DNA from: an uncultured Acidimicrobiales bacterium
GTDB taxonomy: Bacteria; Actinomycetota; Acidimicrobiia; Acidimicrobiales; SZUA-35
NCBI GenBank assembly: GCA_937958015.1
Contig: CALGOA010000050.1
Coordinates: 221 to 64,220 of the forward strand
Direction: 5' to 3'
Length of the DNA: 64,000 nt
This document shows, piece after piece, positions 32,885 through 48,900 of this stretch (its first letter is position 1; the number at the start of each line of letters is the position of its first letter). A program made the translations under genes and the position numbers. The notes beneath the pieces were generated by a model. It was not told where the DNA came from. It searched no databases and was given only the letters and a program-made list of their open reading frames with translations.

Positions 32885-33595
32885 ATGAGCGGGCAGACAT
32901 CCGGTTTGGCGACCATCGACCCCAGCGTGCTGGAGGCGGTCAGGCCCACAACCCTTAGCAAAGAGCAACTTCTCGACGTGCCCGAAGTGCTTCAGCCCCT
33001 CTTTCCGTGGAAGGGGTTGCAGCGGGGGTGGTCGGTTGGTGTGTCCGGGGGCGGAGCGTGGATGTTAACCGCCGCCATGTTGGCACCGTCGCTGGGGGAG
33101 GAGGGCTGGATGGCGGTGGTGGGTGCTCCGTTGATCAACCTGGCTGCTGCGGCCGAGGTCGGGTTGCGTATGGACCGGGTGTTGGTGGTCGATACCCCTC
33201 CCGCGGGGCAGTGGGGGACGGTGATCGCATCGTTGCTCGAGGCGGTGCAGGCCGTGGTGATCGAACCGGCAACGAGGATTGGCGCCCGGGATGCCCGAAG
33301 GATCGGGGCCCGATTGCGGGAGCAGCGGGGAACGTTGGTGCATCTCGATGGGGGATCGTCGTGGCCGAGTTCGCTCGACATGGGACTTACCTGCGTTACC
33401 GACGAGTGGCAGGGCATCGGCGAAGGTCACGGGTATCTGCGCTATCGGCGGGTGTCGGTATCGGCGGTTGGGCGTCGCTCAGCATCTCGACCTCGATCGG
33501 TGTCGTTGTGGATGCCGGGTCCCGATGGGCCTCTCACCACCGCAGAACCGGTGGAGGAGTTGGCAACCGTTCGCCAGCTTCGTCCGGTCTCGTGA
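32885..33595 (+). CDS. imuA: ImuA'-like RecA-fold mutasome accessory protein
   Basis: L.PLFP..GL.RG, W.AVVG.P, AAAE.G...DR, ARR..ARLR....L, W.G.G.G.G; SOS box; upstream of imuB. Confidence 0.82.
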   Translation: MSGQTSGLATIDPSVLEAVRPTTLSKEQLLDVPEVLQPLFPWKGLQRGWSVGVSGGGAWMLTAAMLAPSLGEEGWMAVVGAPLINLAAAAEVGLRMDRVLVVDTPPAGQWGTVIASLLEAVQAVVIEPATRIGARDARRIGARLREQRGTLVHLDGGSSWPSSLDMGLTCVTDEWQGIGEGHGYLRYRRVSVSAVGRRSASRPRSVSLWMPGPDGPLTTAEPVEELATVRQLRPVS

Positions 33596-35406
33596 CTCCC
33601 GAAGAGGTGCTCGCCACCGGACACCCCTCCACCCAACACCTTCAATCGAGCGCAGGCGAGCGAAGGCATGTTGAGCGAAGGCGTCCTGCTGCGGAGGGAC
33701 GGAGCAGCCTAGAGGGCTCTATGGGCTTGATTGAGCGAAGCGAGACCGGAGCGACCCGGGAGCGAGGAACGAGCGGAGGCGAGCGAAGGCATGTAACCGC
33801 AACACGTTATGTAACGGTCCTCTGTCCCGACTGGCCCGTGGTGGCATGGGGGATCCCGTTGGAGGAGCCGGCGGCGGTGTTCGTCGCTAACCGGGTAGTG
33901 GCATGTAGTCCTGGTGCTCGTCGCGATGGAGTGGCGGTGGGGCAGCGTCGGCGAGACGCCCAGGGTCGATGCCCTGATCTCGCCATTCTTGAACAGGACA
34001 TCGACCGTGAGGCCCGCCTCTTCGAACCGGTTGCGGGTGCGCTCACCGACATCACTCCCGAGGTTGAAGTGTCGGGACCCGGTGTCGTCGGCTTCCCGAC
34101 GTTGGGTCCTTCCAAGTTCTTCGGCGGTGATGTCGCCCTGTCGGAGAAGATCGCCGAGACCCTTGCCCCGATCCTCGGTGATCGGGGGAACCTGTATCTC
34201 GGTATCGCCGATGGGATGTTCGGATCCCGGCTCGCCGCAAAGACATCGGCCCAGGTGGGCGAGTTCGCAGGAGAGTCGACGCCGATCATCGTCGATGCCG
34301 GTGGGAGCGCAGGATTCCTCGCCGGGTTTGGTGTGTCGGAACTGGAGTTGCCGGATCTGGCCGATGTCCTGATGCGTTTGGGGCTGCGGACGCTTGGTGA
34401 CTTTGCAGCACTTCATCAGAACGATGTGGTCGACCGGTTCGGGGCCGAAGGGCGGTTGGCTCACCGGTTGGCGAAGGGGATCGACCAGTTCCCACCCAAC
34501 CTTCGCAAACCCGCAGCCGACCTTGCTGCCACGTGGTGGTTCGACCCTCCGACCGAACGGATCGACACCTGCGCGTTTGCGGCCAAAGCTCTGGCCGACG
34601 AATTGAATCGATCGTTGAACGATCGGGGCCTGGCCTGCATTCGGGTGGCGATCGAGGCCGAGACCGAAAACGGCGAGGAGTTCAGCCGGTTGTGGCGTCA
34701 TGAGGGCACATTGTCCGCTGCTGCATTGGCCGAACGGGCCCGGTGGCAGATGGATGGATGGTTGCATCAGGCTCGAATGGGGCATGCGTCGGCGGGAAAC
34801 AATCCCGATGCGGGCGTGGGTTCGGCTATCGCCCGACTGTCGCTGATCCCCGATGAAGTTGTTCCCGCCACCGGCCGTCAGTTGGGGTTCTGGGGTGGCC
34901 GGGCCGAACGGGCCGACGATGTGTCGCGGGCCGTGGCTCGCATTCAGGGAATCCTTGGGGCCGAGTCGGTGCGGGTACCCGAATGGAGTGGTGGGAGGGG
35001 TCCGGCCGAACAGATCCGGTTGATCCCGGCCGCTGCGGTGGACCTTGGCGAACCTCGTGACGGTGCGGATCCCAACCACATCGCACAACCCTGGCCGGGT
35101 CAGATTCCGCCGCCATCACCAAGTCAGATCGGTTCCGAATGGGGTCGTATTGACCTTCTCTCCAATCGTGGTGAACCGGTGGCGGTCACGGGTAGGGGAG
35201 AGTTGGTCGGTTCCCCCCAGTTGATGGTGATCGGTGGCGATGAGGTGGAGGTCGACCGATGGGCAGGTCCCTGGCCGGCCGATGAACGCTGGTGGGATCC
35301 CGCCGCCCACCGCCGTCGGGCTCGTATGCAGGTGGTTCTTGAAGACGGGACCGCACACCTGTTGGTCACCGAACAACAGCAGTGGACAATCGAAGCCACC
35401 TACTAA
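33592..35406 (+). CDS. imuB: ImuB, inactive Y-family DNA polymerase
   Basis: CPDWP, VVACS..AR..GV..GQRRR.AQ.RCP, LGLRTLGDFA, clamp motif QLGFW, WAGPWP.DERWWD, EATY. Start at GTG 33592 (GTGA overlap) or ATG 33721. Confidence 0.9.
   Translation: MTPEEVLATGHPSTQHLQSSAGERRHVERRRPAAEGRSSLEGSMGLIERSETGATRERGTSGGERRHVTATRYVTVLCPDWPVVAWGIPLEEPAAVFVANRVVACSPGARRDGVAVGQRRRDAQGRCPDLAILEQDIDREARLFEPVAGALTDITPEVEVSGPGVVGFPTLGPSKFFGGDVALSEKIAETLAPILGDRGNLYLGIADGMFGSRLAAKTSAQVGEFAGESTPIIVDAGGSAGFLAGFGVSELELPDLADVLMRLGLRTLGDFAALHQNDVVDRFGAEGRLAHRLAKGIDQFPPNLRKPAADLAATWWFDPPTERIDTCAFAAKALADELNRSLNDRGLACIRVAIEAETENGEEFSRLWRHEGTLSAAALAERARWQMDGWLHQARMGHASAGNNPDAGVGSAIARLSLIPDEVVPATGRQLGFWGGRAERADDVSRAVARIQGILGAESVRVPEWSGGRGPAEQIRLIPAAAVDLGEPRDGADPNHIAQPWPGQIPPPSPSQIGSEWGRIDLLSNRGEPVAVTGRGELVGSPQLMVIGGDEVEVDRWAGPWPADERWWDPAAHRRRARMQVVLEDGTAHLLVTEQQQWTIEATY
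33647..33794 (+). repeat. MIRU/REP-like repeats in the imuB 5' region
   Basis: 25-bp direct repeat cgagcg(c/g)aggcgagcgaaggcatgt at 33647 and 33770 (123 bp apart); 33751-33784 matches 47679-47712 at 32/34. Confidence 0.8.
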
Positions 35407-35512
35407 CCCCCTTCCTCACACGTCTCGTGCCCTGGCGGGCGCCACCTGAATCTGATTCGTTTCGGGAGGGTGGGTGCTTGCCAAGGCTCACCGGGTAGGT
35501 CACAGTCGAGGT

Positions 35513-36448
35513 ATGAGCATCATCCACGTGGATCGACCGTTCGGCGAACTTGAGATCGAAGGCCATGAGATTGTGGGTCCGGGCGATGAGCGGCTTGACG
35601 AGGCGGTGATCGCCATCGTGGGCGGAGTCGAATGGGATGCGGCCCGGTTCGATCGTGCCCCGCGTCTGATCGGTTTGTGCCGCACCGGAATCGGTGTGGA
35701 CGCTGTGGACCTTGCCGAAGCCACGCGCCGGGGAATCGCCGTGACCAACACACCCGATGGGCCCACCGTGTCGACGGCCGAACATGCGATCGCATTGATG
35801 TTCGCCGTCACCAAAACCCTTGGTCCCCATGCCGCCCGGCTTCGAGAGGCGACCGGCGGGTACGCGGCAGCCAGCACGGCCCTGGAGTTGGACGGCCTGA
35901 CGCTTGGTCTTCTTGGTTATGGCCGCATCGCAAGCCGAGTGGCACGAATCGCCCACGGCATTGGCATGCGGGTGCTGGCCTACGACCCGTTCGTGTGGTC
36001 AACCGAGGACGAGACCGAACTGGTCGAGTGGGACCAGGTCCTGGCCGAGAGCCACGTCCTCTCACTGCATGCACCACTTGCTCCCGACACCACCGGCATT
36101 CTGAACGACGACTCGATCGCGCAGTGCCGTGAGGGGGTCGTGGTGATCAACTGCGCCCGGGGCGGACTGGTCGACCACGATGCGTTGGTTCGAGGATTGG
36201 ATTCCGGACACATCTGGGCCGCTGGTCTCGACGTCACCGAACCCGAACCACTCCCGGCCGACGATCCGTTGCTGCACCGGCCGAATGTGATCGTGACACC
36301 ACACATCGCATCATCCACCGTGATCGGGCGCCAACGCATGCTGGACCAGAGCATCGAACAAGCAGGCATGATCCTGAACGGCCTGAAGCCGACCAACCTT
36401 GTGAACACCGACCTGTTGTCGCCGCACTGGAACGACCTAGAGGCGTAA
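35513..36448 (+). CDS. D-isomer-specific 2-hydroxyacid dehydrogenase (SerA-like)
   Basis: GIGVD.VDL, AEH, GYGRIA, INCARG, GLDVT..EP, TPHIA. Confidence 0.9.
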   Translation: MSIIHVDRPFGELEIEGHEIVGPGDERLDEAVIAIVGGVEWDAARFDRAPRLIGLCRTGIGVDAVDLAEATRRGIAVTNTPDGPTVSTAEHAIALMFAVTKTLGPHAARLREATGGYAAASTALELDGLTLGLLGYGRIASRVARIAHGIGMRVLAYDPFVWSTEDETELVEWDQVLAESHVLSLHAPLAPDTTGILNDDSIAQCREGVVVINCARGGLVDHDALVRGLDSGHIWAAGLDVTEPEPLPADDPLLHRPNVIVTPHIASSTVIGRQRMLDQSIEQAGMILNGLKPTNLVNTDLLSPHWNDLEA

Positions 36449-36530
36449 CACTAGGGACAGGCTCCCGCGTTACACCTCCACCGCTTCGCCCGGCGGTAAA
36501 CGTAACGGCGGAGCCTGTCCCTTTTGTTAC
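36445..36530. repeat. Long inverted repeat between convergent genes (bidirectional terminator or REP-like element)
   Basis: 29-bp arms gtaacactagggacaggctcccgcgttac / gtaacggcggagcctgtcccttttgttac, including both TAA stops; inner accgc/gcggt stem. Confidence 0.8.
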
Positions 36531-37489
36531 TCGCCGTTGAGTCGGGCGACCAGTTCTGGTGTCAGCGCCTCGACGACCTCGATCGCTTCCATGTTCTCGA
36601 CCACTTGGCTGGAGCGGCTCGCTCCGGTGATGACCGACGAGACGTTCGGGTTGGCGGCGCACCATGCCAGCGCAAGCTGAGCCGGTGTGCAGTCGAGTTC
36701 CTTCGCAACCTCGACCACCCGTTTGATCGTGGCGACGGCCTCCTCTTCTTCGAGGCGGTCCTTCAGGTAGCCATGGCCCTTGAGGGTGGCGCGACTGTCG
36801 TCGGGGATGCCGTCGAGGTACTTGCCGGTCAGCAGCCCGCCAGCCAGGGGGCTCCAGATGGTCGTGCCCAATCCAATATCCTCGTAGAGGCGCTTGAACT
36901 CGGTCTCGACCTTGTCGCGGTTGAGCATGTTGTATTCGGGCTGCTCCATGACCGGCTTGTGCAGATGGTGACGCTCGGCGATCTCGTACGCGGCGCGGAT
37001 CTCATCAGCGGTCCACTCGGACGTGCCCCAGTAGAGCGCCTTGCCCTGGTTGATCATGTCGTGCATCGCGTACACGGTCTCTTCGATCGGTGTATCGGGG
37101 TCAGCTCGATGGCAGTAGACCAGGTCGACATAGTCGAGTTGCAACCGCTCGAGGGAACGATCGATGGCGTTCATCAGGTACTTGCGGTTGAGGGTGAAGT
37201 GGTTGTTGACGTCGTCGGAGATGCCCCAGAAGAACTTGGTGCTGATGACGTAGGTCTCGCGGGCCCAGCCGAACTCCTGCAGGGCCTGACCCATCAGGGT
37301 CTCCGATTCGCCTTTGGCGTAAACCTCGGCGTTGTCGAAGAAGTTGCACCCTCCGTCGCGCGCTGCACTCATCGACTCGGTAACGGCGTCGAGTCCCTGC
37401 TGGCCGCCGAAGGTCACCCACGACCCGTACGACAGCGTGCTTACCTTCAGCCCGCTCCGACCCAACCTGCGATATGTCATTTCAGCCAT
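36527..37489 (-). CDS. Aldo/keto reductase (Kv-beta-like)
   Basis: [12 protein letters not shown]...[35 protein letters not shown]. Confidence 0.92.
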
Positions 37490-37548
37490 GAAGGCACGCT
37501 ACCGGCTGCATCGAAAGGGACAGGCATCGTCGTGGCACCCGTTTTGGG

Positions 37549-38637
37549 TCAATCGAACATGATCACCTGGCGGGCAACCGTGCCCGTCTTGAGGTTGTCG
37601 AAGCCTTCGTTGATCTGATCCAACGAGAGGGTGCCGCTGATCATCTCGTCCAGTTTGAGACGCCCGTCGAGATACATATCGACATATCGCGGCATGTCGG
37701 TCCGGAACTGGGTGCTGCCCATGTTCGACCCGGTCAGCGTCTTTTCGTTGGTGAGCTCCACCCCGTGAATCTCGACCATCGTGCCCAGGGGGATCAGTCC
37801 GATGACCGTGGCCTGACCGCCGACCCGCAACATCTTGAATGCCTGCTCGGCCGTGGCCTTCAAGCCCACCGCCTCGAAGGTAAACCGAGCCCCACCGTCG
37901 GTGATCCGCTTCACGGCCTTCACCGGATCCTCGTCCGATGCGTTTACGACGTGCGTTGCGCCAAGAGTCTGGGCCAGCTCGAGCTTCGACGAATGCATGT
38001 CGACCGCGATCACACGGTTGGCTCCGGCGATGCGGGCCCCCTGGATCGCAGAGAGACCGATGCCGCCACATCCGATAACGACCACGTCGGAGCCGGGGTC
38101 GACTCGGGCGGTGCGAAAGACGGCTCCGAGTCCGGTGGTAACCCCGCAACCGATGAGCGCGGCCTTCTCCAGTGGCATGTCTTTGCGGATCTTCACCAGC
38201 GCGTGTTCGTGAACCAGTAGTTTCTCGGCAAACGAGGAGCAGTGCAGAAACTGGGCGAGATCTTCGTCCCCCCGGGTGAGGCGGGAGTCCTCGTCTGGGT
38301 TGCGAACAAGGTCGGCGCCCTTGCGCTGGCAGCGGGCGGGATGACCACCGAGACAGTCCTCGCAGTGGCCGCAGAAGGCAGCGAGGCAGGTGATCACATG
38401 ATCGCCCGGTTCCACGTAGTTCACCATGCTGCCGACCGCTTCCACGACACCGGCCGACTCGTGGCCAAGCACGGCGGGGACCGCGGTGGTGTAGGTGCCC
38501 TCCATGAAGTGGAGGTCGCTGTGGCAGAGTCCTGCCGCGACCGTGCGAACCAATACTTCGCGCGGCCCGGGGGTGCCTATGGAGACGTCCTGAATTTCCA
38601 GTCGTCCGGGAATCTCGTTGAGAACTGCAGCCTTCAT
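37549..38637 (-). CDS. Zn-dependent alcohol dehydrogenase
   Basis: CHSD, GHE, structural Zn CGHCEDC...C, GCGV.TG, GCGGIG. Confidence 0.92.
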   Translation of the reverse strand: MKAAVLNEIPGRLEIQDVSIGTPGPREVLVRTVAAGLCHSDLHFMEGTYTTAVPAVLGHESAGVVEAVGSMVNYVEPGDHVITCLAAFCGHCEDCLGGHPARCQRKGADLVRNPDEDSRLTRGDEDLAQFLHCSSFAEKLLVHEHALVKIRKDMPLEKAALIGCGVTTGLGAVFRTARVDPGSDVVVIGCGGIGLSAIQGARIAGANRVIAVDMHSSKLELAQTLGATHVVNASDEDPVKAVKRITDGGARFTFEAVGLKATAEQAFKMLRVGGQATVIGLIPLGTMVEIHGVELTNEKTLTGSNMGSTQFRTDMPRYVDMYLDGRLKLDEMISGTLSLDQINEGFDNLKTGTVARQVIMFD

Positions 38638-38671
38638 CGCGCTTGTATATCGCGTTCGTGCCATCGGCGCG

Positions 38672-39847
38672 TCAATCCTCGGTCGGGCGACCGAACTCTT
38701 CCATCGCTCGACGCTGAACCTCGTGCAGCGGCATCCTCAGAATGTGCGCCGCTCGAAGACAGTTGGCCAGTTCGGGTTTGGCCCGATGCGGTCCGATCTT
38801 GATTCGGATCTCCTGGCCCTGAACCACCACGGTCTCGAAGGTTCGTTCGACGGCGAATCGCTCGACGGTGCGTTGACGGATTCCCAGCGAGCCGGTCTCG
38901 GCCATCACGATGGTTCGCAACGACTCGGCGACGTCGGCGGAACAGAGCACGTTGACGGTGTGTGCCGGTCGACCCTTCTTCATCACGATCGGCGCAATCC
39001 ACGCATCGGCAGCGCCCTCGGCCAGGCAACGTTCGACGACCCACGCCAATACCTCTGGCGTGACGTCGTCGACGTTGGTCACCAGTTCGACCATGGGCGT
39101 AGGGACAAACTTCCGCTCGCCAGTATCAACCGTGATCGCGGTCAGCACGTTCGGATGGCTGTCGGGGTCCCGTCCTCCACACCCGCGCCCGACGCCGGTG
39201 ATGACGCCAGCCGCCGGATGAGGACCCTGCTCCGCAGCCATGGAGGTCAGTAGTGCGGCGCCGGTGGGCGTGACGGTTTCCATCTCGGCGCCGTGAAGTG
39301 GACGAGTGCTCCAGCCCTTTAGGAGCTCGACCACAGCAGGAGCGGGCAGTGGCAGACGGCCGTGCGAAGCCATCACCGTGCCGCTGCCCAGACCGAAGGT
39401 GCCGACGGCGACGTTCGGTTCGCCCAGCAGGTGCCATGCGATCCACGAACCAACGATGTCGGCGATTGCATCGAGCCCGCCGACCTCGTGGAAGTGCACC
39501 TCGTCGATGGTGGTGCCGTGGATCGAGGCCTCGGTCTCGCCCAAGCGGCGGAACGTGTGGCGGGCACCGAATTCGACCCCGTCGGGAAGGTTGGCGGTGG
39601 CGATCAGTTGGTCGATCTGACTCCACGCACGATGGACGTGATGATCCTCGTCGGGCATTCGGATCTCGGCCCGGGTGGCGGAGAGTTCATTGCGGAGTTC
39701 GGGCGAGGCTCGAACTTCGAGGCCATCGATTCCCAGCCGACCCAGGTGGTCGTTGAGCAGTTGTTCGTCAACGCCCAGCGCCAGGAAGGCGCCCAGAATC
39801 ATGTCGCCCGAAGCACCGAAGGTCGGGTCGAACCAGAGGTCGTTCAT
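38672..39847 (-). CDS. larC: Nickel pincer cofactor biosynthesis protein LarC
   Basis: GASGDM.LGA, HFHEVG..DAIADI, HG.LP.PAPA, TPTGAA, NVDD.TPE, MKKGRP. Confidence 0.9.
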   Translation of the reverse strand: MNDLWFDPTFGASGDMILGAFLALGVDEQLLNDHLGRLGIDGLEVRASPELRNELSATRAEIRMPDEDHHVHRAWSQIDQLIATANLPDGVEFGARHTFRRLGETEASIHGTTIDEVHFHEVGGLDAIADIVGSWIAWHLLGEPNVAVGTFGLGSGTVMASHGRLPLPAPAVVELLKGWSTRPLHGAEMETVTPTGAALLTSMAAEQGPHPAAGVITGVGRGCGGRDPDSHPNVLTAITVDTGERKFVPTPMVELVTNVDDVTPEVLAWVVERCLAEGAADAWIAPIVMKKGRPAHTVNVLCSADVAESLRTIVMAETGSLGIRQRTVERFAVERTFETVVVQGQEIRIKIGPHRAKPELANCLRAAHILRMPLHEVQRRAMEEFGRPTED

Positions 39848-40485
39848 CGCTGCAGGATTCGGTGCGCGGCACATGCGGCGCCGTAGCCGTTGTCGATTCC
39901 AACGACCGAGATGCCGGGCGCGCAGCTGGCCATCATGGTCAGCAGTGCGGTGACACCTTCGAATGCACTGCCGTATCCGACCGATGTGGGTACCGCAATG
40001 ATCGGCTGGCCCGTGAGTCCGGCGAGCACCGTGGGGAGTGCGCCTTCCATACCCGCAATTGCGATGATGACGTCGGCGTCGTCGAATTCAGATGTGGCCG
40101 ATGTCAGGCGATGCATTCCGGCGACGCCGACGTCGGTGATTCTCCGAACCGCGTGCCCCAGCGAGGTGAGCGTTAGAGCGGCTTCTGCGGCGACGGGCAC
40201 ATCACTGGTACCGGCGCTGACGATGGCGACGGTCCTCCCGCTGTGGGGCCGGTGGTTCCAAGACATCGTGGTGCCTTCTGCTGCGCTCGGAGCGAGCGCT
40301 GCGAGCGAGGGTCGCTGTTCCTCGGTGATCCTGGTGGCGACGACTGCGTCGTCAGCGCCGTCGAGGAGGCCCCGAACGGCATCGACGGTCTGGTCGATCG
40401 ATTTGAACTCGCACAGGACGGCTTCGGGCATCCCGATCCGCATGGTGCGCCCGAGGTCGAGCCGTAGATCAGGCGAGCGCGTCAT
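39844..40485 (-). CDS. larB: Nickel pincer cofactor biosynthesis protein LarB
   Basis: R.G.PE, AGTSD, DVGVAG.HR, AGMEGAL, PTSVGYG, CAPG, IDNGYGA. Confidence 0.92.
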   Translation of the reverse strand: MTRSPDLRLDLGRTMRIGMPEAVLCEFKSIDQTVDAVRGLLDGADDAVVATRITEEQRPSLAALAPSAAEGTTMSWNHRPHSGRTVAIVSAGTSDVPVAAEAALTLTSLGHAVRRITDVGVAGMHRLTSATSEFDDADVIIAIAGMEGALPTVLAGLTGQPIIAVPTSVGYGSAFEGVTALLTMMASCAPGISVVGIDNGYGAACAAHRILQR

Positions 40486-41263: not shown

Positions 41264-41354
41264 CCGTTGAGCGTACCGATGCCCAGCCGTTAAGGGGCTG
41301 TGCGGGGGCGGCGCCGGGTGAGTGAAACGGCGTCGTCTCGCTACATACTGTGGC

Positions 41355-41942
41355 GTGGCTGATGATCCGGTTTCAAAGTCCGTCGATGTCGCTCGCATCG
41401 AAGCGGCCGTGCGGGAGATCCTGAGCGCGGTGGGGGAGGACCCCGATCGCGATGGTTTGTTGGACACCCCTCGTCGGGTGGCCAAGGCCTACAACGAGAT
41501 CCTCGGCGGGTATCAGGAGAATCCGGCTCAACATCTGGACAAACAGTTCGAGGTCGATCATCGGGAACTGGTGATCGTGAAGGACATCCCGTTCGCATCC
41601 CTGTGTGAACACCACATGCTGCCGTTCATCGGTCGGGCCCACGTGGCCTACATACCCGGCGACTCGGGCAAGGTATGTGGCCTGTCCAAGTTGGCCCGCC
41701 TGGTCGATGGTTACGCCCGTCGTCTGCAGGTGCAGGAGCGCCTGAATATGCAGGTGGCGAATGCGCTGATGGATCGGTTGGGAGCCGAAGGCGCAATGGT
41801 CGTTATGGAGGCCGAACACCTGTGTATGTCGATGCGGGGGGTTCGTAAGCCCGGAGCGATGACAACGACCTCGGCGATCCGGGGATGTCTGAAGGACAGC
41901 GCCGCCAGCCGCGCCGAAGCCCTCAGCCTCATCAACGCCTGA
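41355..41942 (+). CDS. folE: GTP cyclohydrolase I
   Basis: [47 protein letters not shown]. Confidence 0.95.
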
Positions 41943-41960
41943 CCCACCCTCCCCCCAAAT

Positions 41961-42032
41961 TTCTGCTGGCCACTACAAGTCTCGTAGTCCTCGGCAGACA
42001 GAACGAGAAGTTGTGGTCGCTGGCAGACAGAA
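41961..42032. repeat. Degenerate intergenic hairpin/repeat with TTCTG...CAGAA ends
   Basis: ggcagacagaa twice (41993, 42022); imperfect complementarity of ttctgctggccac with gtggtcgctggcagacagaa. Confidence 0.4.
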
Positions 42033-42077
42033 GCGAATTCTTTCTGCACTTCGACCGTGGTGTGAAACACTCCAACG

Positions 42078-42623
42078 ATGGGAAGAGCGTTCGAGTCAAT
42101 CACGTCGCCAATGCGGTCGTTCATCGAGGCCCAGCATGTCTTCTTCGTTGGGACAGCACCGGCGGGGGCGGACGGCCACGTGAATCTCTCGCCGAAGGGG
42201 TACGACTGCTTTCGGATTCTCGGTGATAACCGGGTGGCATATCTCGATCTCACGGGCAGCGGAGCCGAAACGATCGCCCATGTGCGGGAGAACCAGCGGA
42301 TCACGTTCATGTTCTGTGCCTTCGAGGGCAAGCCGAACATCGTGCGGTTGTATGGCACCGGCGCTGTCCATCGACCGGGGGACCCCGAGTGGGACGAACT
42401 TCGATCGATGTTCGAGACCGACGGTGCGGTGAGGTCGATCATCACTTCTGACGTCCATCGAACCTCGAGCTCGTGCGGCTTTTCCGTTCCGTTCATGGAC
42501 TTCCGGGAGGAGCGGAGCCGTCTCATCGATTGGGCTCAGGACAAATCCGAAGAGGACCTCAGCGACTACTGGGCTTTGAAAAACTCCACCTCGATCGACG
42601 GTCTTCCCGCCGTCGACAAGTAG
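42078..42623 (+). CDS. Pyridoxamine 5'-phosphate oxidase family (split-barrel flavin-binding) protein
   Basis: FFVGTA, NLSPKG, YLDLTGSG.ET.AH, MFCAFEG, SCGF.VP, N..SIDGLP. Confidence 0.87.
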   Translation: MGRAFESITSPMRSFIEAQHVFFVGTAPAGADGHVNLSPKGYDCFRILGDNRVAYLDLTGSGAETIAHVRENQRITFMFCAFEGKPNIVRLYGTGAVHRPGDPEWDELRSMFETDGAVRSIITSDVHRTSSSCGFSVPFMDFREERSRLIDWAQDKSEEDLSDYWALKNSTSIDGLPAVDK

Positions 42624-42632
42624 GGAGCGGGC

Positions 42633-43964
42633 GTGGCCTCTGACCCGAATCACTCGAGCGCAACCTCGACGCACGAGTCGGGTCAACGCTGGTCCAACTG
42701 GTCCGGAAACGTCTCCTTTGCGCCAGATCGGTTCAGTCGTCCCCGCACGGTCGACGACGTGGTCGACACGGTGCGATCCTCCCCCGGTCGAATTCGCACC
42801 GTCGGATCGGGCCACTCCTTTACCGAACTCGCTGTCACCGACGGCACCCTCGTCTCGCTCAGCGATCTCGAGGGTGATGTGTCGGGGGTCGACCCCGTCA
42901 ATCACCGGGCCTTGCTCAACGCCGGGGCCACACTGAACCGCCTGTCACGTTCTCTCGAGAGCTACGGATTGGGATTCAAGAACCTGGGCGATGTGGATGT
43001 TCAGTCCCTCGCCGGCGCGATCTCAACCGGCACGCACGGCACCGGTCGTACGCTGCCGTGCCTTTCGGCCGAACTTTCGGCGATCACGGTCGTGTTGGCG
43101 GATGGAGAGGTGCTGCGCATCGGCGATGGTGAGAACGATCACCTTCTTCCGGCAGCCCGGGTCTCCCTTGGATCACTCGGGATCATTGTGGATGCGACTG
43201 TGGATCTCCGCCCTGCGTACAAACTGCACCGAAGGACGTTCGTGCAGCCACTGACCGAGACGTTGGCCGACGCAACCAGCATGTGGGAGAAGCACCGAAA
43301 CTACGAGTTCTTCTATCTTCCGTTTTGCGACTACGCCTTCAACATCGTCCACGACATCACCACCGAACCCGACCGGTCCGAGGGTGGCGCGGGAGACGAG
43401 GATGCCCTTCGAGATCTGCGGCGGGTGAGAGGTGTCCTCCGGAGGGCCGGCCGGCTGCGGAGGACTCTTCTCAATCAGGTGGCAAAGCGCGCTCCCGCAG
43501 AAGATGTGATCGGCCCCAGTTGGCAGCTGCTGGCAAATGAGCGCACGTCGAAGTTCAACGAGATGGAATATCATGTGCCGGTCGAAAGCGGCATGGAGGC
43601 GTTCGAAGAGATCGTCGCTGCGGTCGAGGCGAATCCACTCGTGTACTTTCCGGTCGAGTGCCGTCGAACGGCCGGGGACTCTGCCTGGTTGAGTCCGTTC
43701 CAGGGTGGTGAGCGGGTGTCGATTGCGGTCCACATCGCTGAGGGGGACGACTATCGATGGTTGTTCGAAGTCATCGAGCCGATCCTTCGCCGTCACGGCG
43801 GTCGGCCGCACTGGGGCAAGTTGCACTCGATGACGGCTCGGGAACTCGCCGAGCTCTACCCCGACTTCCCCAAGTTCGCTGCGGTCAGAAAGGAACTCGA
43901 CCCCACGGGCCGGTTCCTGAATCCGCACACGGCAGAGCTGTGGGGAGAGCCGTTCGGTGAGTGA
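42633..43964 (+). CDS. FAD-linked oxidoreductase, D-arabinono-1,4-lactone oxidase family
   Basis: WSNWSG, GSGHS, GAISTGTHG, EMEY, GGRPHWGK, DP.G.FLN. Confidence 0.9.
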   Translation: MASDPNHSSATSTHESGQRWSNWSGNVSFAPDRFSRPRTVDDVVDTVRSSPGRIRTVGSGHSFTELAVTDGTLVSLSDLEGDVSGVDPVNHRALLNAGATLNRLSRSLESYGLGFKNLGDVDVQSLAGAISTGTHGTGRTLPCLSAELSAITVVLADGEVLRIGDGENDHLLPAARVSLGSLGIIVDATVDLRPAYKLHRRTFVQPLTETLADATSMWEKHRNYEFFYLPFCDYAFNIVHDITTEPDRSEGGAGDEDALRDLRRVRGVLRRAGRLRRTLLNQVAKRAPAEDVIGPSWQLLANERTSKFNEMEYHVPVESGMEAFEEIVAAVEANPLVYFPVECRRTAGDSAWLSPFQGGERVSIAVHIAEGDDYRWLFEVIEPILRRHGGRPHWGKLHSMTARELAELYPDFPKFAAVRKELDPTGRFLNPHTAELWGEPFGE

Positions 43965-45147
43965 GCTCCCTGACCTTGACGGCTACTTCGGATCGATCCG
44001 AACGGCGCTGACCGAAGCCGGCTTCAACCAGCCGGTGGTGGTCATCGACAAGTCCCGGCTCGATGCGAACCTGAACACTCTTCAACAGACCCTGCCAAGC
44101 CAGTTGGCCGTGCGGGTCGTCGCCAAGTCCCTGCCCTCGCTTCCGCTGATTCAGCACGTGGCTGATCATCTGGGGACCGATCGGCTGATGACGTTCAATC
44201 TGCCGATGTTGCAGCAGCTGAGCCACCAGATGCCCCAAGCCGATCAGTTGCTGGGGAAGCCTTTTCCGGTTTCAGCTGCCGCGCAGTTCTACCGGGATGC
44301 GGGTGCTGAGGCAAACGAACGGGTCCGGTGGCTGATCGATACGGAGGAGCGGCTCGGCCAGTATGAGGCGTTGGCGAGTGAGGTCGGGGTCCGCATTCGG
44401 GTCTGTCTTGAACTGGACGTCGGTCTTCATCGAGGCGGATTCGATCCCGGGTCTACGTTGCGCGACGCCCTTTATCGAGTCAACGCCAGCGACGATCTGG
44501 AGTTCTCCGGTTTCATGGGGTACGAGGCTCACCTTGCCAAGATCCCCGAGCTCGGCCGGTTGCGGGACAAGGCCCTGCAGCAGTCGATGGAGTTGTACTC
44601 CGAATCGATAGATCTCGCGTCGGCGATCCTCGGGGCCGATCGGGTCGAGGGCGTGGTACGGAACTCGGCCGGCAGCATGACCTACCGTCTGCACGATGGA
44701 AGCGATATCGCAAACGAGACGTCGATTGGATCCGTGCTACTGAAGGGCACCGACTTCGATCTCGATCTTCTGGAACCGTTCGAGCCGGCGGTGTTCATCG
44801 CCACCACTGTGCTCAAGGTTCTTGACTCGATCAGGCTTCCCGGCCTCGACTTTGCCCAGACGATCACCGATCGTTTGAGCTCGAAACGAAAGACGCTGTT
44901 TGTTCACGGTGGCCATTGGCTGGCTGAACCGGAGTTCCCGGTCGGGATGTCCAACTACTCCCTCTGGGGCCGGTCCAGCAACCAGGAGATGTTCCACGTC
45001 GATCTGGCGACATCGGTCGCTCCGGATGACTTCGTGTTCCTCCGGCCTCATCAAACCGAAGCCGTGTTGCTGCAGTTCGGAGATATCGCCGTCTACGAGA
45101 ACGGTTCGATCGTGGATTCCTGGCCGACACTGGCGGTGTCGGCGTAG
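43957..45147 (+). CDS. Fold-type III PLP-dependent enzyme (DSD1/alanine racemase-like)
   Basis: RVVAKSLPS (PLP Lys), ELDVGLHRGG, GFMGYEAH, SNQE; overlaps the upstream oxidase. Confidence 0.85.
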   Translation: MSELPDLDGYFGSIRTALTEAGFNQPVVVIDKSRLDANLNTLQQTLPSQLAVRVVAKSLPSLPLIQHVADHLGTDRLMTFNLPMLQQLSHQMPQADQLLGKPFPVSAAAQFYRDAGAEANERVRWLIDTEERLGQYEALASEVGVRIRVCLELDVGLHRGGFDPGSTLRDALYRVNASDDLEFSGFMGYEAHLAKIPELGRLRDKALQQSMELYSESIDLASAILGADRVEGVVRNSAGSMTYRLHDGSDIANETSIGSVLLKGTDFDLDLLEPFEPAVFIATTVLKVLDSIRLPGLDFAQTITDRLSSKRKTLFVHGGHWLAEPEFPVGMSNYSLWGRSSNQEMFHVDLATSVAPDDFVFLRPHQTEAVLLQFGDIAVYENGSIVDSWPTLAVSA

Positions 45148-45157
45148 CGCGCCGCGA

Positions 45158-45775
45158 TCAAACCGACAGGAGTGTGTGACCATCCAGCGCTCGTTGGGCC
45201 ATCACCGCCAGGACCACCCAGTAGCCGTCGGTTCCCTCCACCAGATCGCTTTGGCGGATCGATTCGGCCCCGGAATCGGTTGCGGTAGACGGTACCGAGA
45301 CCTCGTAAGCGGGGTCCTGGAGGATCTGGAGTAGGTCAGCGGCGGAAATGTCGACAAGTCCTGCCACTTCGTCGAGCGGTGGGCGGTAGTCCTGGATTGG
45401 CCGATCGTCGAGCACGAAGAACACGTTGACCCGCTCGCGATTCTGGCCCTCCCCGTTGTCATCAGCCAGCAATCGTGTGCCGAGCGAAATCAATCGGTCG
45501 GGGTCCAGCGGAACGCCGAGTTCCTCTTCGAACTCTCGAAGTCCATCGAGCGGGGTTTCGCCTGCGGCCAGATGTCCGGTGACCGACAGGTCGAGTTGAT
45601 TGGGGAAGGCGGCTTTGGTCGCGGCTCGGCGTTGGAGAACGATGGAACGGTTCGAGGGTCGAAGTACGAGGCAGTGGAAGACCTGATGCCATGATCCTTG
45701 GGCATGCACGGCGGATCTGTCCGCTTCGCCGATCACCGCCCCGGTAGCGGGACTGACGATGTCGATCTTCTCCAC
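45158..45775 (-). CDS. NUDIX hydrolase (IDI-like)
   Basis: H..G.WH..FHC, LQRR...K..FP..LD.SV.GH..AGE....G.RE.EEELG. Confidence 0.85.
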   Translation of the reverse strand: MEKIDIVSPATGAVIGEADRSAVHAQGSWHQVFHCLVLRPSNRSIVLQRRAATKAAFPNQLDLSVTGHLAAGETPLDGLREFEEELGVPLDPDRLISLGTRLLADDNGEGQNRERVNVFFVLDDRPIQDYRPPLDEVAGLVDISAADLLQILQDPAYEVSVPSTATDSGAESIRQSDLVEGTDGYWVVLAVMAQRALDGHTLLSV

Positions 45776-45821
45776 CTCGGCGAGGATACCGATTCGATCG
45801 TGGGCCTAAGGGTTCGTTCTG

Positions 45822-45888
45822 CCTGATGGGAGCGACATCGAGCGCGTTCTACCCCGTGTAGAGGCCGTCAGATGTAGTGCCCATCAGG
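45822..45888. repeat. Imperfect long hairpin upstream of the dnaE2 promoter
   Basis: cctgatgggagcgacatc ... gatgtagtgcccatcagg (15/18), inner tctac/gtaga stem. Confidence 0.6.
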
Positions 45889-45917
45889 AATTTGCAGGTG
45901 GGTGGGGCTGGACGAAG

Positions 45918-45938
45918 CGAACATGTGTTCGGTATCAT
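45918..45938 (+). promoter_or_regulatory. LexA (SOS) box and -10 of dnaE2
   Basis: CGAACATGTGTTCG followed by TATCAT, 9 nt before ATG 45948. Confidence 0.88.
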
Positions 45939-45947
45939 CGACGCCCT

Positions 45948-48900
45948 ATGGGATGGATGAATCCGCCGAAGCCGTGGAAGGAGATCGAACAAGCGCTGTC
46001 GGATCGTCCTATCCAAACCCCGGTCCAAAAGGAAGACTTTCCGGCCTGGGCCAATGGTGGGGATTCGCCGGCATGGAGCAGAAAGCGGCACAGCTATGAG
46101 GCGCCGGAGGGCCTTCGGGGCATGCGAGGGGCAACCCCCTATGCCGAACTGCACTGTCATTCCAGCTTCAGTTTCCTGGACGGGGCGTCGGACCCTGAAG
46201 ACCTCGTGGAGGAGGCGGCTCGACTGGGTCTGGAGGCTCTTGCAATCACCGATCACGATGGTTTCTACGCCGTTCCCCGGTTCGCTGAGGCGGCGAAGGC
46301 CGTGGGCCTTCCAACGATCTTCGGAGCGGAGCTTTCGATGGGTATTCCGCGACCGCCCAAATCAGGAGCTGACCCGGCCCCCGATCCCCACGGTGCTCAC
46401 CTGCTTCTGTTGGCTCGGGATCCCAAGGGATACGCCGCGTTGGCCAGAGTGATCAGCGAATCACAGCTGGCCGGCGAAAAGACCGCTCCCAACATGACCT
46501 TTGCCGATCTGGACCGATGGTTGCAGCCCGGTGAGGCCCGACATCTCCTGGCTCTCACCGGCTGTCGTAAGGGGACGGTTCGATCGGCCCTCGAAGCGGA
46601 GGGCCCGGCGGCAGCCGACCGCGAACTCTCCCATCTGATCGATGTCTTTGGTGCCGACGGTGTTGTTGTCGAACTCTGGGATCACGGTTCACCGTTGGAC
46701 TCGGCCCGCAACGACGCTCTGGTCCAGTTGGCCGCTCGACGAGGGCTGGCGGTGGTTGCCAGCAACAACGTCCACTACGCCACACCGGCCAAACACAAGC
46801 TGGCGTCGGCTATGGCGGCGGTTCGATCCCGGTCGTCGCTCGACGACATGGCTGGCTGGCTTCCGCCGTCGGCGGGGGCCCATCTTCGATCCGGGGCCGA
46901 ACAGTCCCGGCGGTTCGCCCGTTATCCGGGGTCGGTCGAAATGGCCGCCGAAATCGGGTTGAGCTGTGCCTTCGATCTTGCCCTGGTGGCGCCGCAGTTG
47001 CCGCCCTATCCCACCCCCGACGGGATGGATGAAATGGCGTTCCTGCGACATCTCGTCGAAGAGGGTGGGGTTCATCGTTACGGCACTCGTGGTGATGAGT
47101 GTGTTCCGGGAGCCTGGAAGCAGCTCGATCACGAGTTGGACCTGATCGAACATCTCGGCTTCGCCGGCTACTTCTTGGTGGTGTGGGACATCGTCGAGTT
47201 CTGCCGGAACGCCGACATCCTCTGTCAGGGCCGGGGGAGTGCTGCCAACTCAGCGGTCTGTTACGTGCTCGGGATCACCAAGGCCGATGCGGTAAGTCTC
47301 GGGCTGTTGTTCGAACGGTTTCTGGCTCCCGAACGTGATGGACCTCCTGATATCGATCTTGATATCGAGTCGGACCGCCGAGAAGAGGCGATCCAGTATG
47401 TCTATGAGAAACATGGACGACGTCACGCTGCGCAGGTTGCCAACGTGATCACCTACCGGTCCCGGTCCGCTGTTCGAGATGCAGCCAAGGCGCTTGGATA
47501 TGCCCCCGGCCAGCAGGACGCATTCAGTAAGTCGATCGATGGTTGGACCGGACTGAAAGCTCAAGTGTGTGCGGAACGGGCATCGGCCGGTGCGCCCGTC
47601 GTCGCCCGTCAACAGCGGGGCAACAGCTCGGGTTATTCCTCAGGACCTGCCCCTGAACCCCTTCCATCCGCTCGTGTTGCGACCCGGCAGCGAGGAACGA
47701 GGGGAGGCGAGCAGGGGCAAGGTAGTGAATTGCCTGACGATGTGGTCGAGTTGGCGATGGAATTCGAGAACCTGCCCCGCCACCTTGGAATCCATTCGGG
47801 CGGGATGGTGATGTGCGATCGGCCGGTGATCGAGGTGTGTCCTGTCGAGTGGGGGCGGATGCAGGATCGGACTGTTCTTCAGTGGGACAAGGAAGACTGT
47901 GCAATCGCCGGTCTGGTCAAGTTCGATCTGCTCGGCCTCGGAATGCTGAGCGCCCTTCACTACGCCGTCGATCTGATCGAGGAACATCACGACACCCGGC
48001 TCGATCTTGCTGCACTGCCCCAGGAGGACGAGGTGTACGAAATGCTCTGCCGGGCCGATTCGGTTGGTGTCTTCCAGATCGAATCACGCGCCCAGATGAG
48101 CACCCTGCCCCGTCTGAAGCCCCGGAATTTCTACGACCTCGTTGTGGAGATCGCGCTCATTCGTCCCGGGCCGATTCAAGGTGGGTCCGTCCATCCCTAT
48201 ATTCGCAGACGCAACGGTCAGGAGCCGGTGACGTATCTTCACCCCCTCCTGAAACCGGCACTGGAGAAGACGCTTGGGATCCCTCTGTTTCAGGAGCAGC
48301 TGATGCAGATGGCAATCGATGTATCGGGGTTCAGTCCGGCCGAGGCGGATGAACTTCGACGGGCCATGGGTTCCAAACGCAGCGTGGCTCGAATGACCAA
48401 TCTGAAGGAACGGCTCTGTGCCGGCATGGCCGAGCGGGGTATCGACGAAGACATCCAGGAGCAGATCTGGGTCAAGTTGGTCGCCTTTGCCAACTACGGC
48501 TTTCCCGAGAGCCATTCGATCTCGTTCGCCTACCTGGTGTACGCATCCAGTTGGATCAAACTCCACTACCCGGCAGCGTTCTGTGCCGCTCTCCTCAATG
48601 CGCAGCCGATGGGTTTCTATTCACCTCATTCCCTGGTGCAGGACGCCCGTCGCCACGGTGTCCCCACCCTCACCCCCGACATCAATCTCTCCGGTGCCGA
48701 CGCCGATCTCTGCTATCCCTCCGGGGGCCGTTCCGTCGCCACGGAGGCGCAGCCTCCGGGCGTTCCACAAGGCGCTCCATCAGATGTCACCGGTCCAAAC
48801 AATCCATCCCTCATCCCTCCGGGAGGACGCAACGACTGTTCCGTCGCCACGGAGGCGCAGCCTCTGGACGTTCCACAAAGCGCTCCATCAGATTCGGTTC

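What the first reader, a model, noticed from the sequence alone, without database searches (positions are those of the whole stretch)
33592..47712. The same short repeat is translated in frame inside both mutasome polymerases (ImuB N-terminus and DnaE2 interior)
Seen: a 34-bp sequence at 33751-33784 recurs at 47679-47712 (32/34 identical), 14 kb away and in the same reading frame, giving ATRERGTSGGE in ImuB and ATRQRGTRGGE in DnaE2. In ImuB it lies in a ~65-codon extension before the conserved CPDWP region, which also carries a 25-bp direct repeat 123 bp apart (both copies read ERRHV). In DnaE2 it lies in a low-complexity ~55-aa insertion before ELPDDVVEL and is preceded by a partly complementary arm (ccatccgctcgt). 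Known: mycobacterial MIRUs and Rickettsia palindromic elements are short repeats that become coding sequence. Inference: an uncharacterised small repeat family is adding peptide segments to proteins in this lineage, and both SOS mutagenesis genes carry a copy.
Basis: partly seen in the sequence, partly recalled or inferred. Interest (0 to 1): 0.75.

Follow-up and report, generated by a model that had tools for sequence, protein, structure and literature searches.

The report
Small repeat translated inside mutasome genes
A short DNA repeat scattered through this bacterium's genome has been built, in frame, into two error-prone DNA-repair genes; this kind of event is known, but the repeat family is new and it hits one gene unusually often.

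Summary
The 34-mer at 33751-33784 recurs at 47679-47712 (32/34, 0 of 100 shuffles), codon-aligned in both imuB and dnaE2.

It is the conserved 3' core of a roughly 100-bp, purine-rich repeat that forms arrays. The unit is a short hairpin GCTGC-GGAGGGACGGA-GCAGC, a variable stretch, TTGATTGAGCGGAGCGAG, GGAGCGACCCGG, then GAGCGAGGAACGAGCGGAGGCGAGCGG. The family is dispersed in this genome and expanded in its genus (Acidimicrobiales by record titles). The hairpin word was found once in one of the 20 other genera searched.

Most copies are intergenic, often tandem, and abut gene ends. In imuB, about 150 nt (50 codons) sit between the conserved N-terminal HPS and TR motifs. No canonical start lies downstream of them, so they must be translated.

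In dnaE2 a 53-nt 3' fragment occupies a loop. In congeners the same loop holds a full element in the same orientation, full elements in reverse orientation, or only remnants. A second dnaE2 loop holds 1.5 copies of another repeat family.

No mobilising enzyme, terminal inverted repeats, target duplication or stable fold was found.

Verdict: a new member of a known kind (like MIRU and RPE), with DnaE2 as a recurrent landing site. Interest is moderate.

The parts
32822..33595 (+). imuA' (its TGA stop overlaps the imuB GTG as GTGA)
   Evidence: ORF. NCBIfam NF058630 ImuA', 110.8 bits against cut-off 65.
33592..35406 (+). imuB, with GTG 33592 as the most likely start
   Evidence: Translation, Pfam IMS, orthologues in 31 of 31 genomes. 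Congeners also couple the imuB start to the imuA' stop and carry HPS a few residues in. A related strain's contig has ATG at 33592.
33650..33799 (+). about 150-nt (50-codon) repeat-derived insert in imuB, relative to the empty site of congeners
   Evidence: DNA junction comparison. The right flank GCAACA... resumes at 33800.
33647..33671 (+). first copy of the 25-nt direct repeat (a partial 3' module of a preceding unit)
   Evidence: 24/25 identical to 33770-33794, 123 nt apart. One search shows the same architecture at other loci: a partial 3' half, a spacer, then a full unit.
33688..33797 (+). full short-type repeat unit
   Evidence: nhmmer E 2.1e-21. This copy was in the model's training set. 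Independent support is blastn to contigs C49, C8, C60, C143 and C159.
33688..33708 (+). conserved hairpin module GCTGC-GGAGGGACGGA-GCAGC
   Evidence: 10 exact matches to the 19-nt pattern in G000. 4 of its 5 stem pairs are invariant in 35 of 35 aligned units; the fifth is C-G in 28, U-G in 6 and unpaired in 1.
33727..33746 (+). TTGATTGAGCGAAGCGAGAC module (TTG in the ERSE frame, TGA in both other frames)
   Evidence: Alignment A1; frames read from the sequence.
45948..49664 (+). dnaE2 (error-prone polymerase), intact 1238-codon ORF
47677..47729 (+). repeat-derived 3' fragment in dnaE2 loop 1 (contains the 34-mer at 47679-47712 and a decayed end module)
   Evidence: Core model E 0.011 genome-wide and 1.9e-5 on the loop alone. 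It shares its left (CTCGTG) and right (GGCAA..TGAA) junctions with the full element in G006.
48679..48895 (+). second in-frame insert in dnaE2 (loop 2): about 1.5 copies of a third dispersed repeat family, adding 55 aa
   Evidence: segment of 131 aa against 75-95 aa in 13 of 14 other loci; 88-94% identity over 89-117 nt to 11 other contigs; 32 family hits.

Best explanation
The 34-mer is the conserved 3' core of a roughly 100-bp, purine-rich interspersed repeat that forms tandem arrays. The family has expanded in one Acidimicrobiales genus.

Copies normally lie between genes, abutting stop or start codons, as 1.3 to 6 head-to-tail units. On occasion a copy lands in, or is absorbed into, a coding stretch that tolerates extra residues and is then kept as coding sequence. 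Examples are the poorly conserved N-terminus of ImuB, two variable loops of DnaE2, and the linker of an E2 acyltransferase.

What is shown:
- family membership;
- in-frame position;
- absence of the imuB insert from orthologues;
- repeated occupation of the DnaE2 loops in congeners, in both orientations.

What is inferred:
- Arrays grow and shrink by slippage between the internal GAGCG-type direct repeats.
- Only lengths divisible by three survive in genes.
- Tolerance is helped by base composition (11% T on the purine-rich strand), which leaves most frames free of stops.
- Old inserts decay to fragments such as the 53 nt in this dnaE2.

How copies reach new loci is not known.
For: Family and distribution:
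- The core occurs 6 times in the genome: contig C49 three times, imuB, dnaE2 and the E2 linker.
- There are 16 short-type, 78 long-type and 32 family-3 hits.
- The hairpin word occurs 10 times in G000, 38 in G001, 36 in G005, 29 in G006 and 20 in G004. It occurs once in G012 and not at all in the 19 other genera searched. Reversed-pattern controls gave 0.
- 67 of the 80 listed public loci with the word are titled Acidimicrobiales, and many are perfect tandem arrays with periods of 67-114 nt.

imuB:
- Homology of the congeners' ImuB starts at residues 49-70 of this ImuB in 9 of 10 congeners.
- The congeners' N-termini read M..HPS..TR..CPDWP, with 20-27 residues before the Cys. Here HPS and TR are split by the insert.
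- No ATG, GTG or TTG lies in frame between 33785 and CPDWP.
- A contig from another study spans 33300-34300 in one piece at about 95% identity. It carries the element, has a 15-nt (5-codon) deletion, and has ATG instead of GTG at 33592, a change that is synonymous in imuA'.

dnaE2:
- In loop 1, G006 has a full element in the same orientation. G001 and G005 have full elements in reverse orientation (E 3.6e-21 and 3.2e-18, neither copy in the model's training set). G002 and G005 keep end-module remnants. All are in frame in intact ORFs.
- In loop 2, this genome has 1.5 units of family 3. G001 has four 99-nt units plus a reversed element, 269 aa against about 76 aa.
- The loops fall in gaps relative to solved Pol III alpha. 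Query residues 529-593 correspond to chain residues 524-552, and 920-1003 to 881-883.

General:
- Periods inside genes are 123, 108 and 99 nt, all divisible by 3. The intergenic periods read are 67, 82, 95-97 and 104-106.
- Stop-free frames among 35 units: 25 in the ERSE frame and 27-29 in each reverse frame.
- The E2 linker fragment is absent from 7 of 7 congener linkers read.
Against: - No mobilising gene was identified.
- I saw no terminal inverted repeats and no target duplication at the one filled/empty comparison.
- There is no RNA or protein evidence that the inserts are expressed.
- The genome is a draft MAG of 252 contigs that break at these repeats. Intergenic copies are therefore under-counted and the coding share (4 of 6 core copies) is inflated.
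- The dnaE2 piece is only 34-53 nt.
- The dnaE2 copy matches a different sequence subtype from the full element at the same site in G006. A shared ancestral insertion therefore cannot be told apart from repeated insertion or gene conversion.
- My gene calls come from a crude codon-usage scorer of my own.
- Congeners are kin, so counts across them are not independent.
- Stop-free frames are only slightly more common than in random 100-mers of the genome (3.9 against 3.4 of 6).
Confidence: 0.8

Rival explanations
1. The similarity is chance, or convergence of low-complexity Glu/Arg/Gly-rich coding sequence, and not common descent from a repeat.
For: The segment is purine-rich and built of GAGCG-like words. 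The linkers it sits in are compositionally biased.
Against: 0 of 100 shuffles give a second match. The same core, with flanking modules, recurs in non-coding spacers on C49 and in dozens of loci in congeners. G006 has the complete unit at the same dnaE2 site.
Confidence: 0.02
2. The imuB copy is not translated. ImuB starts downstream of the repeat at a non-canonical codon, or the gene is decaying, so only dnaE2 carries repeat-coded residues.
For: There are no expression data. The codon-usage score of the long ORF is low (0.062), although that ORF includes the overlap with imuA'. The element also offers internal starts (ATG 33721, TTG 33727), so the first 43 residues may not be made.
Against: No canonical start lies between 33785 and CPDWP. 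Any start at 33592, 33721 or 33727 still translates the 34-mer. The ORF is intact over 604 codons and 81% identical to orthologues. A related strain keeps the frame through a 15-nt deletion and has ATG at 33592.
Confidence: 0.07
3. The shared peptide is a selected functional motif, for example a contact between ImuB and DnaE2, and not a passenger.
For: Both mutasome partners carry it in the same frame.
Against: Congeners lack it in ImuB. In DnaE2 they carry other frames, the reverse strand, or nothing. The E2 linker reads the core partly in another frame. The same DNA is mostly non-coding.
Confidence: 0.04
4. The inserts are artefacts of metagenome assembly, with contigs joined wrongly through repeats.
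For: Contigs of the best-matching run break inside 33652-33761, and many contigs of the genome end in these repeats.
Against: A single 2435-nt contig from another study crosses the whole imuB region with the element in place. Both ORFs stay open and colinear with orthologues on each side. Near-complete congener assemblies show the same kind of inserts in dnaE2.
Confidence: 0.03

Closest known systems
MIRU (mycobacterial interspersed repetitive units)
   Same: Units of 40-100 bp, dispersed at tens of loci, head-to-tail arrays of variable copy number, positions inside operons at gene junctions, and small ORFs that overlap the neighbouring start codon. This description comes from passages of PMC3184786 and PMC12548453. 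Here the units are 67-123 nt and form arrays, and copies lie in operon spacers. At tpiA in two species the element's ERSE-frame ORF ends in ATGA on the tpiA start.
   Different: Different class of Actinomycetota. No sequence relation was tested or is expected. The unit is purine-rich with a single 5-bp hairpin. It is also found inside genes as internal inserts, which I did not see described for MIRUs in the passages I read.
RPE (Rickettsia palindromic elements)
   Same: Small repeats inserted in frame into unrelated genes, adding peptide segments at tolerated places (passages of PMC10969869).
   Different: RPEs are palindromic and often intragenic. This family is not palindromic (mean folding z of 0.0), forms direct arrays, and is mostly intergenic.
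REP/REPIN elements with RAYT transposases
   Same: Short intergenic repeats with a hairpin, high copy number, and clustering. The genome has one RAYT-like gene.
   Different: That gene is not flanked by the repeats. No homologue was found in the three repeat-richest congeners, G001, G005 and G006. Clusters are head-to-tail, not inverted pairs.
Intragenic ERIC, BOX and RUP elements and MITEs
   Same: Repeat ORFs fused to the 5' ends, 3' ends or interiors of genes (passages of PMC3184786; PMC10969869).
   Different: No terminal inverted repeats or target-site duplications were seen here.

Membership tests
MIRU-like interspersed tandem repeats (as a kind, not the mycobacterial family itself) | unit of about 40-100 bp repeated head to tail at many dispersed loci | tested here: met
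   Arrays of 2-6 units with periods of 67-114 nt at many loci. The imuB period is 123 nt.
MIRU-like interspersed tandem repeats (as a kind, not the mycobacterial family itself) | location in intergenic spacers of operons, at start codons, with an element ORF coupled to the next gene | tested here: inconclusive
   Seen at tpiA (ATGA overlap, two orthologous loci), and in the spacers of the operon on C49 that holds the carboxylase-subunit genes and the AtuA-like gene. The ERSE frame is fused in frame to imuB, to the AtuA-like gene and to the gene in L088. The cases are few, and many copies lie at 3' ends or between convergent genes.
MIRU (the mycobacterial family) | sequence homology to MIRU consensus; host Mycobacterium | not tested
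   No MIRU sequence was on hand. Loci carrying the repeat are titled Acidimicrobiales.
RPE-like palindromic intragenic elements | in-frame insertion into genes with preserved ORF | tested here: met
   imuB, dnaE2 (two loops) and E2 in G000. Also dnaE2 of G001, G004, G005 and G006, and a DUF3516 helicase.
RPE-like palindromic intragenic elements | palindromic sequence with stable stem-loop | tested here: not met
   Mean MFE z-score of +0.01 on the plus strand and +0.64 on the minus strand over 35 units, with none below -2. RNAalifold finds the 5-bp hairpin (4 of 5 pairs invariant) plus four isolated pairs with no both-sided changes.
REP/REPIN-RAYT system | repeats flank, and co-occur with, a RAYT (Y1 transposase) gene | tested here: not met
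   There is one Y1_Tnp gene (33.6 bits), tightly packed between other genes with no repeat hits on its contig. A homologue was found in 5 of 31 genomes, but not in G001, G005 or G006.
MITE | terminal inverted repeats and target-site duplication | tested here: not met
   None was seen at the unit ends or at the filled/empty imuB site. Inspection was by eye. Only direct terminal repeats, from partial tandem copies, are present.
Any Rfam RNA family | match to a curated covariance model | tested here: not met
   0 matches at gathering score in the window. In 12 repeat loci at E up to 1, only one chance-level RsmY match appeared (20.7 bits against 57).

The most novel reading that the evidence does not exclude
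The short unit may be a mobile translational-coupling cassette that is read by ribosomes as a rule.

Its conserved TTGATTGAG carries a TTG start in the ERSE frame and TGA stops in both other frames (TTGA is a start/stop overlap). Ribosomes arriving from an upstream gene in any frame would therefore be reset into one frame. The 3' end (GGAGGCAT..ATGA) then hands them to the next gene, or fuses to it.

On this reading the imuB N-terminal insert is the cassette caught in fusion. The repeated hits in dnaE2 and at the imuA'-imuB junction would reflect targeting of, or selection at, mutasome genes, so that insert length may tune error-prone synthesis.
Probability: 0.12. Interest if true: 0.7.

Novelty: new member of a known kind. 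Interest (0 to 1): 0.5.

Why it matters
It adds an actinobacterial lineage outside Mycobacterium to the few cases where small interspersed repeats demonstrably become protein sequence. It also gives a natural decay series at one site of DnaE2: full unit, half unit, end module, nothing.

It shows that two loops of DnaE2 and the first 20 residues of ImuB accept 15 to 190 extra residues. That is useful for anyone who wants to tag or engineer the mutasome.

For annotation, it warns that ORF extensions and odd low-complexity inserts in these genomes are repeat-derived. It also explains why short-read assemblies of this genus break into hundreds of contigs.

Tried and rejected
- Rfam: nothing at gathering score in the window, and nothing credible at E up to 1 in 12 repeat loci.
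- Structured-RNA idea: my hand-drawn long-range helix pairs in 68.9% of cells, but the covariation score was reached by 49 of 500 shuffles and the share of cells paired by 64 of 500. Folding energies equal those of shuffles. The variable hairpins I saw by eye could not be tested column-wise because MAFFT does not keep them in register.
- RAYT link: rejected.
- C6:7759-10068, which my gene caller placed around a long-type fragment, has no Pfam family and looks like an antisense frame, so I did not count it. The weak call on C44 is likewise left out.
- Of the 80 public loci, 13 are titled as other phyla or unclassified. One Acidimicrobiales-titled locus (L071) looks like a chance hit of the 19-mer inside a penicillin-binding-protein-like gene. 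I did not check the 13 individually.
- Sequencing runs: no RNA holder is listed.
- A joint that skips 96 nt (33650 to 33747) in one contig of run X1 has only 28 letters on its short side and may come from another repeat locus. It is not used.
- Contigs of X1-X3 do not bridge the repeat.
- Literature: no paper on repeats of Acidimicrobiales or Acidimicrobiia was found. One search returned 0 papers. The other returned 91 papers holding 2 of the 3 terms, and the 8 listed were unrelated. Subscription journals are not covered and no supplements were read.
- The downstream ORF in L088 gave no Pfam match. Its resemblance to a TrmD N-terminus is recalled, not tested.
Full report
1. OBSERVATION

The two stretches are as described. 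The 34-mer at 33751-33784 has one further match in the window, at 47679-47712, with 2 mismatches. None of 100 dinucleotide-preserving shuffles gave two matches.

Both copies start on a codon boundary of long ORFs. They read ATRERGTSGGE and ATRQRGTRGGE.

- The ORF at 32822-33595 is ImuA' (NCBIfam 110.8 bits, cut-off 65).
- The ORF at 45948-49664 is the error-prone polymerase DnaE2 (1395 bits, cut-off 939).
- The ORF that follows imuA' has the Y-family IMS domain and has orthologues in 31 of 31 related genomes.

The 25-nt direct repeat 123 nt apart in imuB is real, 24/25 identical.

2. WHAT THE 34-MER BELONGS TO

Whole-genome blastn found the 34-mer, with longer flanks, three more times on contig C49. 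It also found neighbouring pieces of the imuB extension on many contigs.

Aligning these copies gives a modular unit:
- a hairpin, GCTGC-GGAGGGACGGA-GCAGC;
- 15-25 variable bases;
- TTGATTGAGCGGAGCGAGAC;
- GGAGCGACCCGG;
- GAGCGAGGAACGAGCGGAGGCGAGCGGAGGCA.

A profile of the unit finds 16 copies in the genome at E below 0.01. A profile of the core alone finds 6: three on C49, one each in imuB and dnaE2, and one in the linker of an E2 acyltransferase on C163.

A related family of 120-160 bp shares the GGAGCGACCCG and GGAGGCGAGCG modules. Some copies also carry the hairpin. It has 78 hits, often in clusters at contig ends. A third, unrelated family of about 250 bp has 32 hits.

Some copies were part of the profiles' training sets (the imuB copy, and the G006 and one G001 dnaE2 copy). 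For those copies I rely on blastn or on the other copies.

3. DISTRIBUTION

An exact-pattern scan of one genome per species for the hairpin word returned 108 stretches. Of the 80 listed, 67 are titled Acidimicrobiales. Many are perfect head-to-tail arrays of 2-6 units with periods of 67-114 nt.

Among 31 related genomes the word occurs as follows:

| Genome | Matches |
|---|---|
| G000 | 10 |
| G001 | 38 |
| G005 | 36 |
| G006 | 29 |
| G004 | 20 |
| G002 | 7 |
| G003, G008, G010 | 1 each |
| G012 (another genus) | 1 |
| G007, G009 (same genus) | 0 |
| remaining 19 genomes, of 19 other genera | 0 |

The reversed-pattern control gave 0 everywhere. The most contiguous assemblies have the most copies, so the draft G000 (252 contigs) certainly under-counts.

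Units within an array are identical, whereas arrays differ in the variable parts. Most 'single' units are preceded by a partial 3' half. That is exactly the architecture in imuB: a 25-nt repeat, a spacer, then a full unit.

4. WHERE COPIES LIE

I used a crude codon-usage gene caller of my own. The 94 short and long hits fall into 55 clusters.

- Two clusters lie inside confirmed genes: imuB, placed by hand because the caller missed it, and the E2 linker.
- One forms the 5' end of an AtuA-like gene.
- Two calls are doubtful: C6, which has no Pfam match, and C44.
- The rest are intergenic or at contig ends.

On C49 the copies fill the spacers of an operon (carboxyltransferase, biotin carboxylase, AtuA-like gene; the first two named from their translations, AtuA by Pfam). 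The last copy is open and in frame with the AtuA domain, which starts at residue 33 of that ORF.

Long-type copies are strongly oriented. 25 of the 25 that lie within 30 nt of a gene's 3' end are antisense to that gene. 6 of the 7 at 5' ends are sense. The same end of the element therefore always faces the ORF.

5. imuB

Congeners start ImuB at a codon that overlaps or abuts the imuA' stop. Their N-termini read M-x(3-8)-HPS-x(3-8)-TR-x(4)-CPDWP.

Here GTG 33592 overlaps the imuA' stop as GTGA. HPS is at residues 11-13 and TR at residues 71-72. About 150 nt (33650-33799, 50 codons) between them have no counterpart in G002, G005, G006 or G010. Homology of the congeners' ImuB begins at residues 49-70 in 9 of 10 congeners; in the tenth the gene is split.

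After the 34-mer there is no ATG, GTG or TTG in frame until after CPDWP. Whichever start is used (33592, or ATG 33721 or TTG 33727 inside the element), the 34-mer is translated if ImuB is made at all.

A 2435-nt contig from a different study crosses 33300-34300 in one piece at about 95% identity (46 substitutions). Four points follow from it:
- It contains the element.
- It has a 15-nt deletion at 33658, between two GAGCGAAGG words.
- It reads ATG at 33592. This change is synonymous in imuA' and keeps a start codon for imuB.
- It argues against an assembly artefact and for 33592 as the start.

6. dnaE2, LOOP 1

Between ...DAFSKSIDGW and ELPDDV, the segment I cut out is 65-101 aa in nine other genera, 69-163 aa in congeners and 120 aa here.

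At the DNA level:
- G006 has a complete unit, in the same orientation, directly before ELP.
- This genome has the same left junction (CTCGTG) and right junction (GGCAA..TGAA) but only the 3' 53 nt.
- G002 and G005 keep about 20 nt of the end module.
- G003 and G010 keep almost nothing.
- G005 and G001 have, further upstream in the loop, complete units in reverse orientation (E 3.2e-18 and 3.6e-21). The one in G001 is bracketed by a 24-nt direct repeat.
- G004 has a duplicated piece with weak similarity to family 3 (E about 5e-4).

All these ORFs are intact.

The dnaE2 copy here and the full unit of G006 belong to different sequence subtypes. I therefore cannot tell one old insertion with later conversion from repeated insertion at one site.

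7. dnaE2, LOOP 2, AND OTHER GENES

Between ADADL and PPKHL this DnaE2 has 55 extra residues with an internal duplication. The DNA (window 48679-48895) is about 1.5 copies of family 3, 88-94% identical over 89-117 nt to copies on 11 other contigs.

G001 has, at the same place, four 99-nt tandem units plus a reversed short-type unit, 269 aa where most others have about 76.

Against solved Pol III alpha, both loops fall in alignment gaps. Query residues 529-593 correspond to chain residues 524-552, and 920-1003 to 881-883.

The E2 linker fragment (C163:19100-19136) matches the core profile at E 2.6e-6. It lies between the lipoyl and E3-binding domains. None of the seven congener linkers I read has it.

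Among the 80 public loci, those open in one frame from end to end and recognisable as proteins were three dnaE2 loops and a DUF3516 helicase domain. The three dnaE2 loops carry the same sequences as L030 and L027, so they are not independent. Coding inserts are rare overall, and dnaE2 takes a disproportionate share: 2 of the 38 hairpin words of G001 lie in this one gene. That enrichment was noticed after the fact.

8. HOW IT MOST LIKELY WORKS

Shown: a dispersed family that forms arrays, and in-frame copies at places where orthologues vary in length.

Inferred: arrays change length by slippage between the many short direct repeats. The 15-nt deletion in the related strain lies between two identical 9-mers. 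In genes, only changes divisible by three persist. The periods are 123, 108 and 99 nt in genes, against 67, 82, 95-97 and 104-106 nt outside them.

The unit is 11% T. Among 35 units, the ERSE frame is stop-free in 25 and each reverse frame in 27-29, so a copy in either orientation often leaves a gene open. The excess over random 100-mers is small, however (3.9 against 3.4 open frames of 6).

The unit is not a palindrome. Only the 5-bp hairpin is conserved, my proposed long-range helix does not beat shuffles, and folding energies are ordinary.

The agent that moves copies to new loci is unknown. The single RAYT-like gene is not flanked by repeats, and no homologue was found in the repeat-richest congeners.

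9. A BOLDER READING

TTGATTGAG has a TTG in the ERSE frame and TGA in both other frames.

At tpiA of two species (orthologous loci, Pfam TIM from residue 4 or 5), a 23-codon ERSE-frame ORF runs from that TTG to a TGA that overlaps the tpiA ATG as ATGA. In imuB, in the AtuA-like gene and in the gene of L088, the same frame runs straight into the downstream protein.

This recalls what a review says of MIRUs: they insert at start codons so that an ORF in the element is coupled to the gene with a -4 spacing (passage read). The cases are few, and three in-frame fusions out of three would happen by chance about 1 time in 27. I keep this as the novel case, not as the verdict.

10. COMPARISON AND NOVELTY

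In-frame repeat insertions are well known. They are described for RPEs, ERIC, BOX, RUP and cyanobacterial MITEs (passages of PMC10969869, and PMC3184786).

MIRUs are the closest in behaviour. Membership in the mycobacterial family itself was not tested.

The defining features of REP-RAYT systems, MITEs and palindromic RPEs were tested and not met. No Rfam family matches.

I found no paper on such repeats in Acidimicrobiales. Coverage is limited to open-access text.

I therefore rate this as a new member of a known kind. The recurrent use of DnaE2 loops and of the imuA'-imuB junction, by up to three repeat families across species, is the unusual part.

Noticed in passing
window 48679-48895 (dnaE2 loop 2): A second in-frame insert in dnaE2 adds 55 residues. 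It is about 1.5 copies of a third dispersed repeat family (~250 bp, 32 hits in the genome). The internal duplication is offset by 108 nt.
   Followed up: yes
L027 (G001 dnaE2), loop 2: Four perfect 99-nt tandem units (33 aa each) plus a reversed short-type unit lie in frame inside an intact DnaE2 ORF. The segment is 269 aa, against about 76 aa in most relatives.
   Followed up: partly
G000 contigs, 55 repeat clusters (e.g. C245:98-841, C191:9144-9692, C35:19831-20257): Long-type repeats sit 0-30 nt from gene ends with a fixed polarity: 25 of 25 at 3' ends are antisense and 6 of 7 at 5' ends are sense. Distances of 0-3 nt suggest that the stop codon lies at or in the element's end. Gene calls come from my own crude scorer.
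   Followed up: partly
G000:C163:19100-19136 (L167 501-537): A fragment of the repeat core forms most of the linker between the lipoyl and E3-binding domains of a 2-oxoacid dehydrogenase E2. It is unique to this genome among 8 members of the genus.
   Followed up: yes
L066 (public Acidimicrobiales locus): A reversed short-type unit lies in frame inside a DUF3516 helicase-associated domain (Pfam E 1.4e-31, two stretches).
   Followed up: partly
L059 and L075, positions about 290-360: The element's 23-codon ORF, which starts at the conserved TTG, ends in a TGA that overlaps the tpiA start codon (ATGA). The arrangement is kept in two species despite substitutions.
   Followed up: partly
G000:C25:9807-10649 (L161 1021-1866, minus strand): A single RAYT-like gene (Y1_Tnp plus a sigma-70 region-4-like C-terminus) is wedged between other genes with no flanking repeats. 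Homologues were found in only 5 of 31 related genomes.
   Followed up: yes
window 33592 and 33658 in run X5's contig: A roughly 95%-identical strain from another study has ATG instead of GTG at the imuB start (synonymous in imuA') and a 15-nt in-frame deletion between two GAGCGAAGG words.
   Followed up: partly
L008 (G004 imuA'-imuB junction) and L025 (G004 dnaE2 loop 1): The motif GAACGGCCCCCGGAGGG, seen by eye as shared with family 3 (weak profile hits, E 3.5e-5 and about 5e-4), occurs duplicated at both places. In that species both mutasome loci may carry pieces of a different repeat family.
   Followed up: partly
L121 and L125 (public loci): By eye, some units directly abut what look like tRNA genes (TPsiC-arm-like GGTTCGAATCC-type sequence in the flank). 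This was not checked with a tRNA finder.
   Followed up: no
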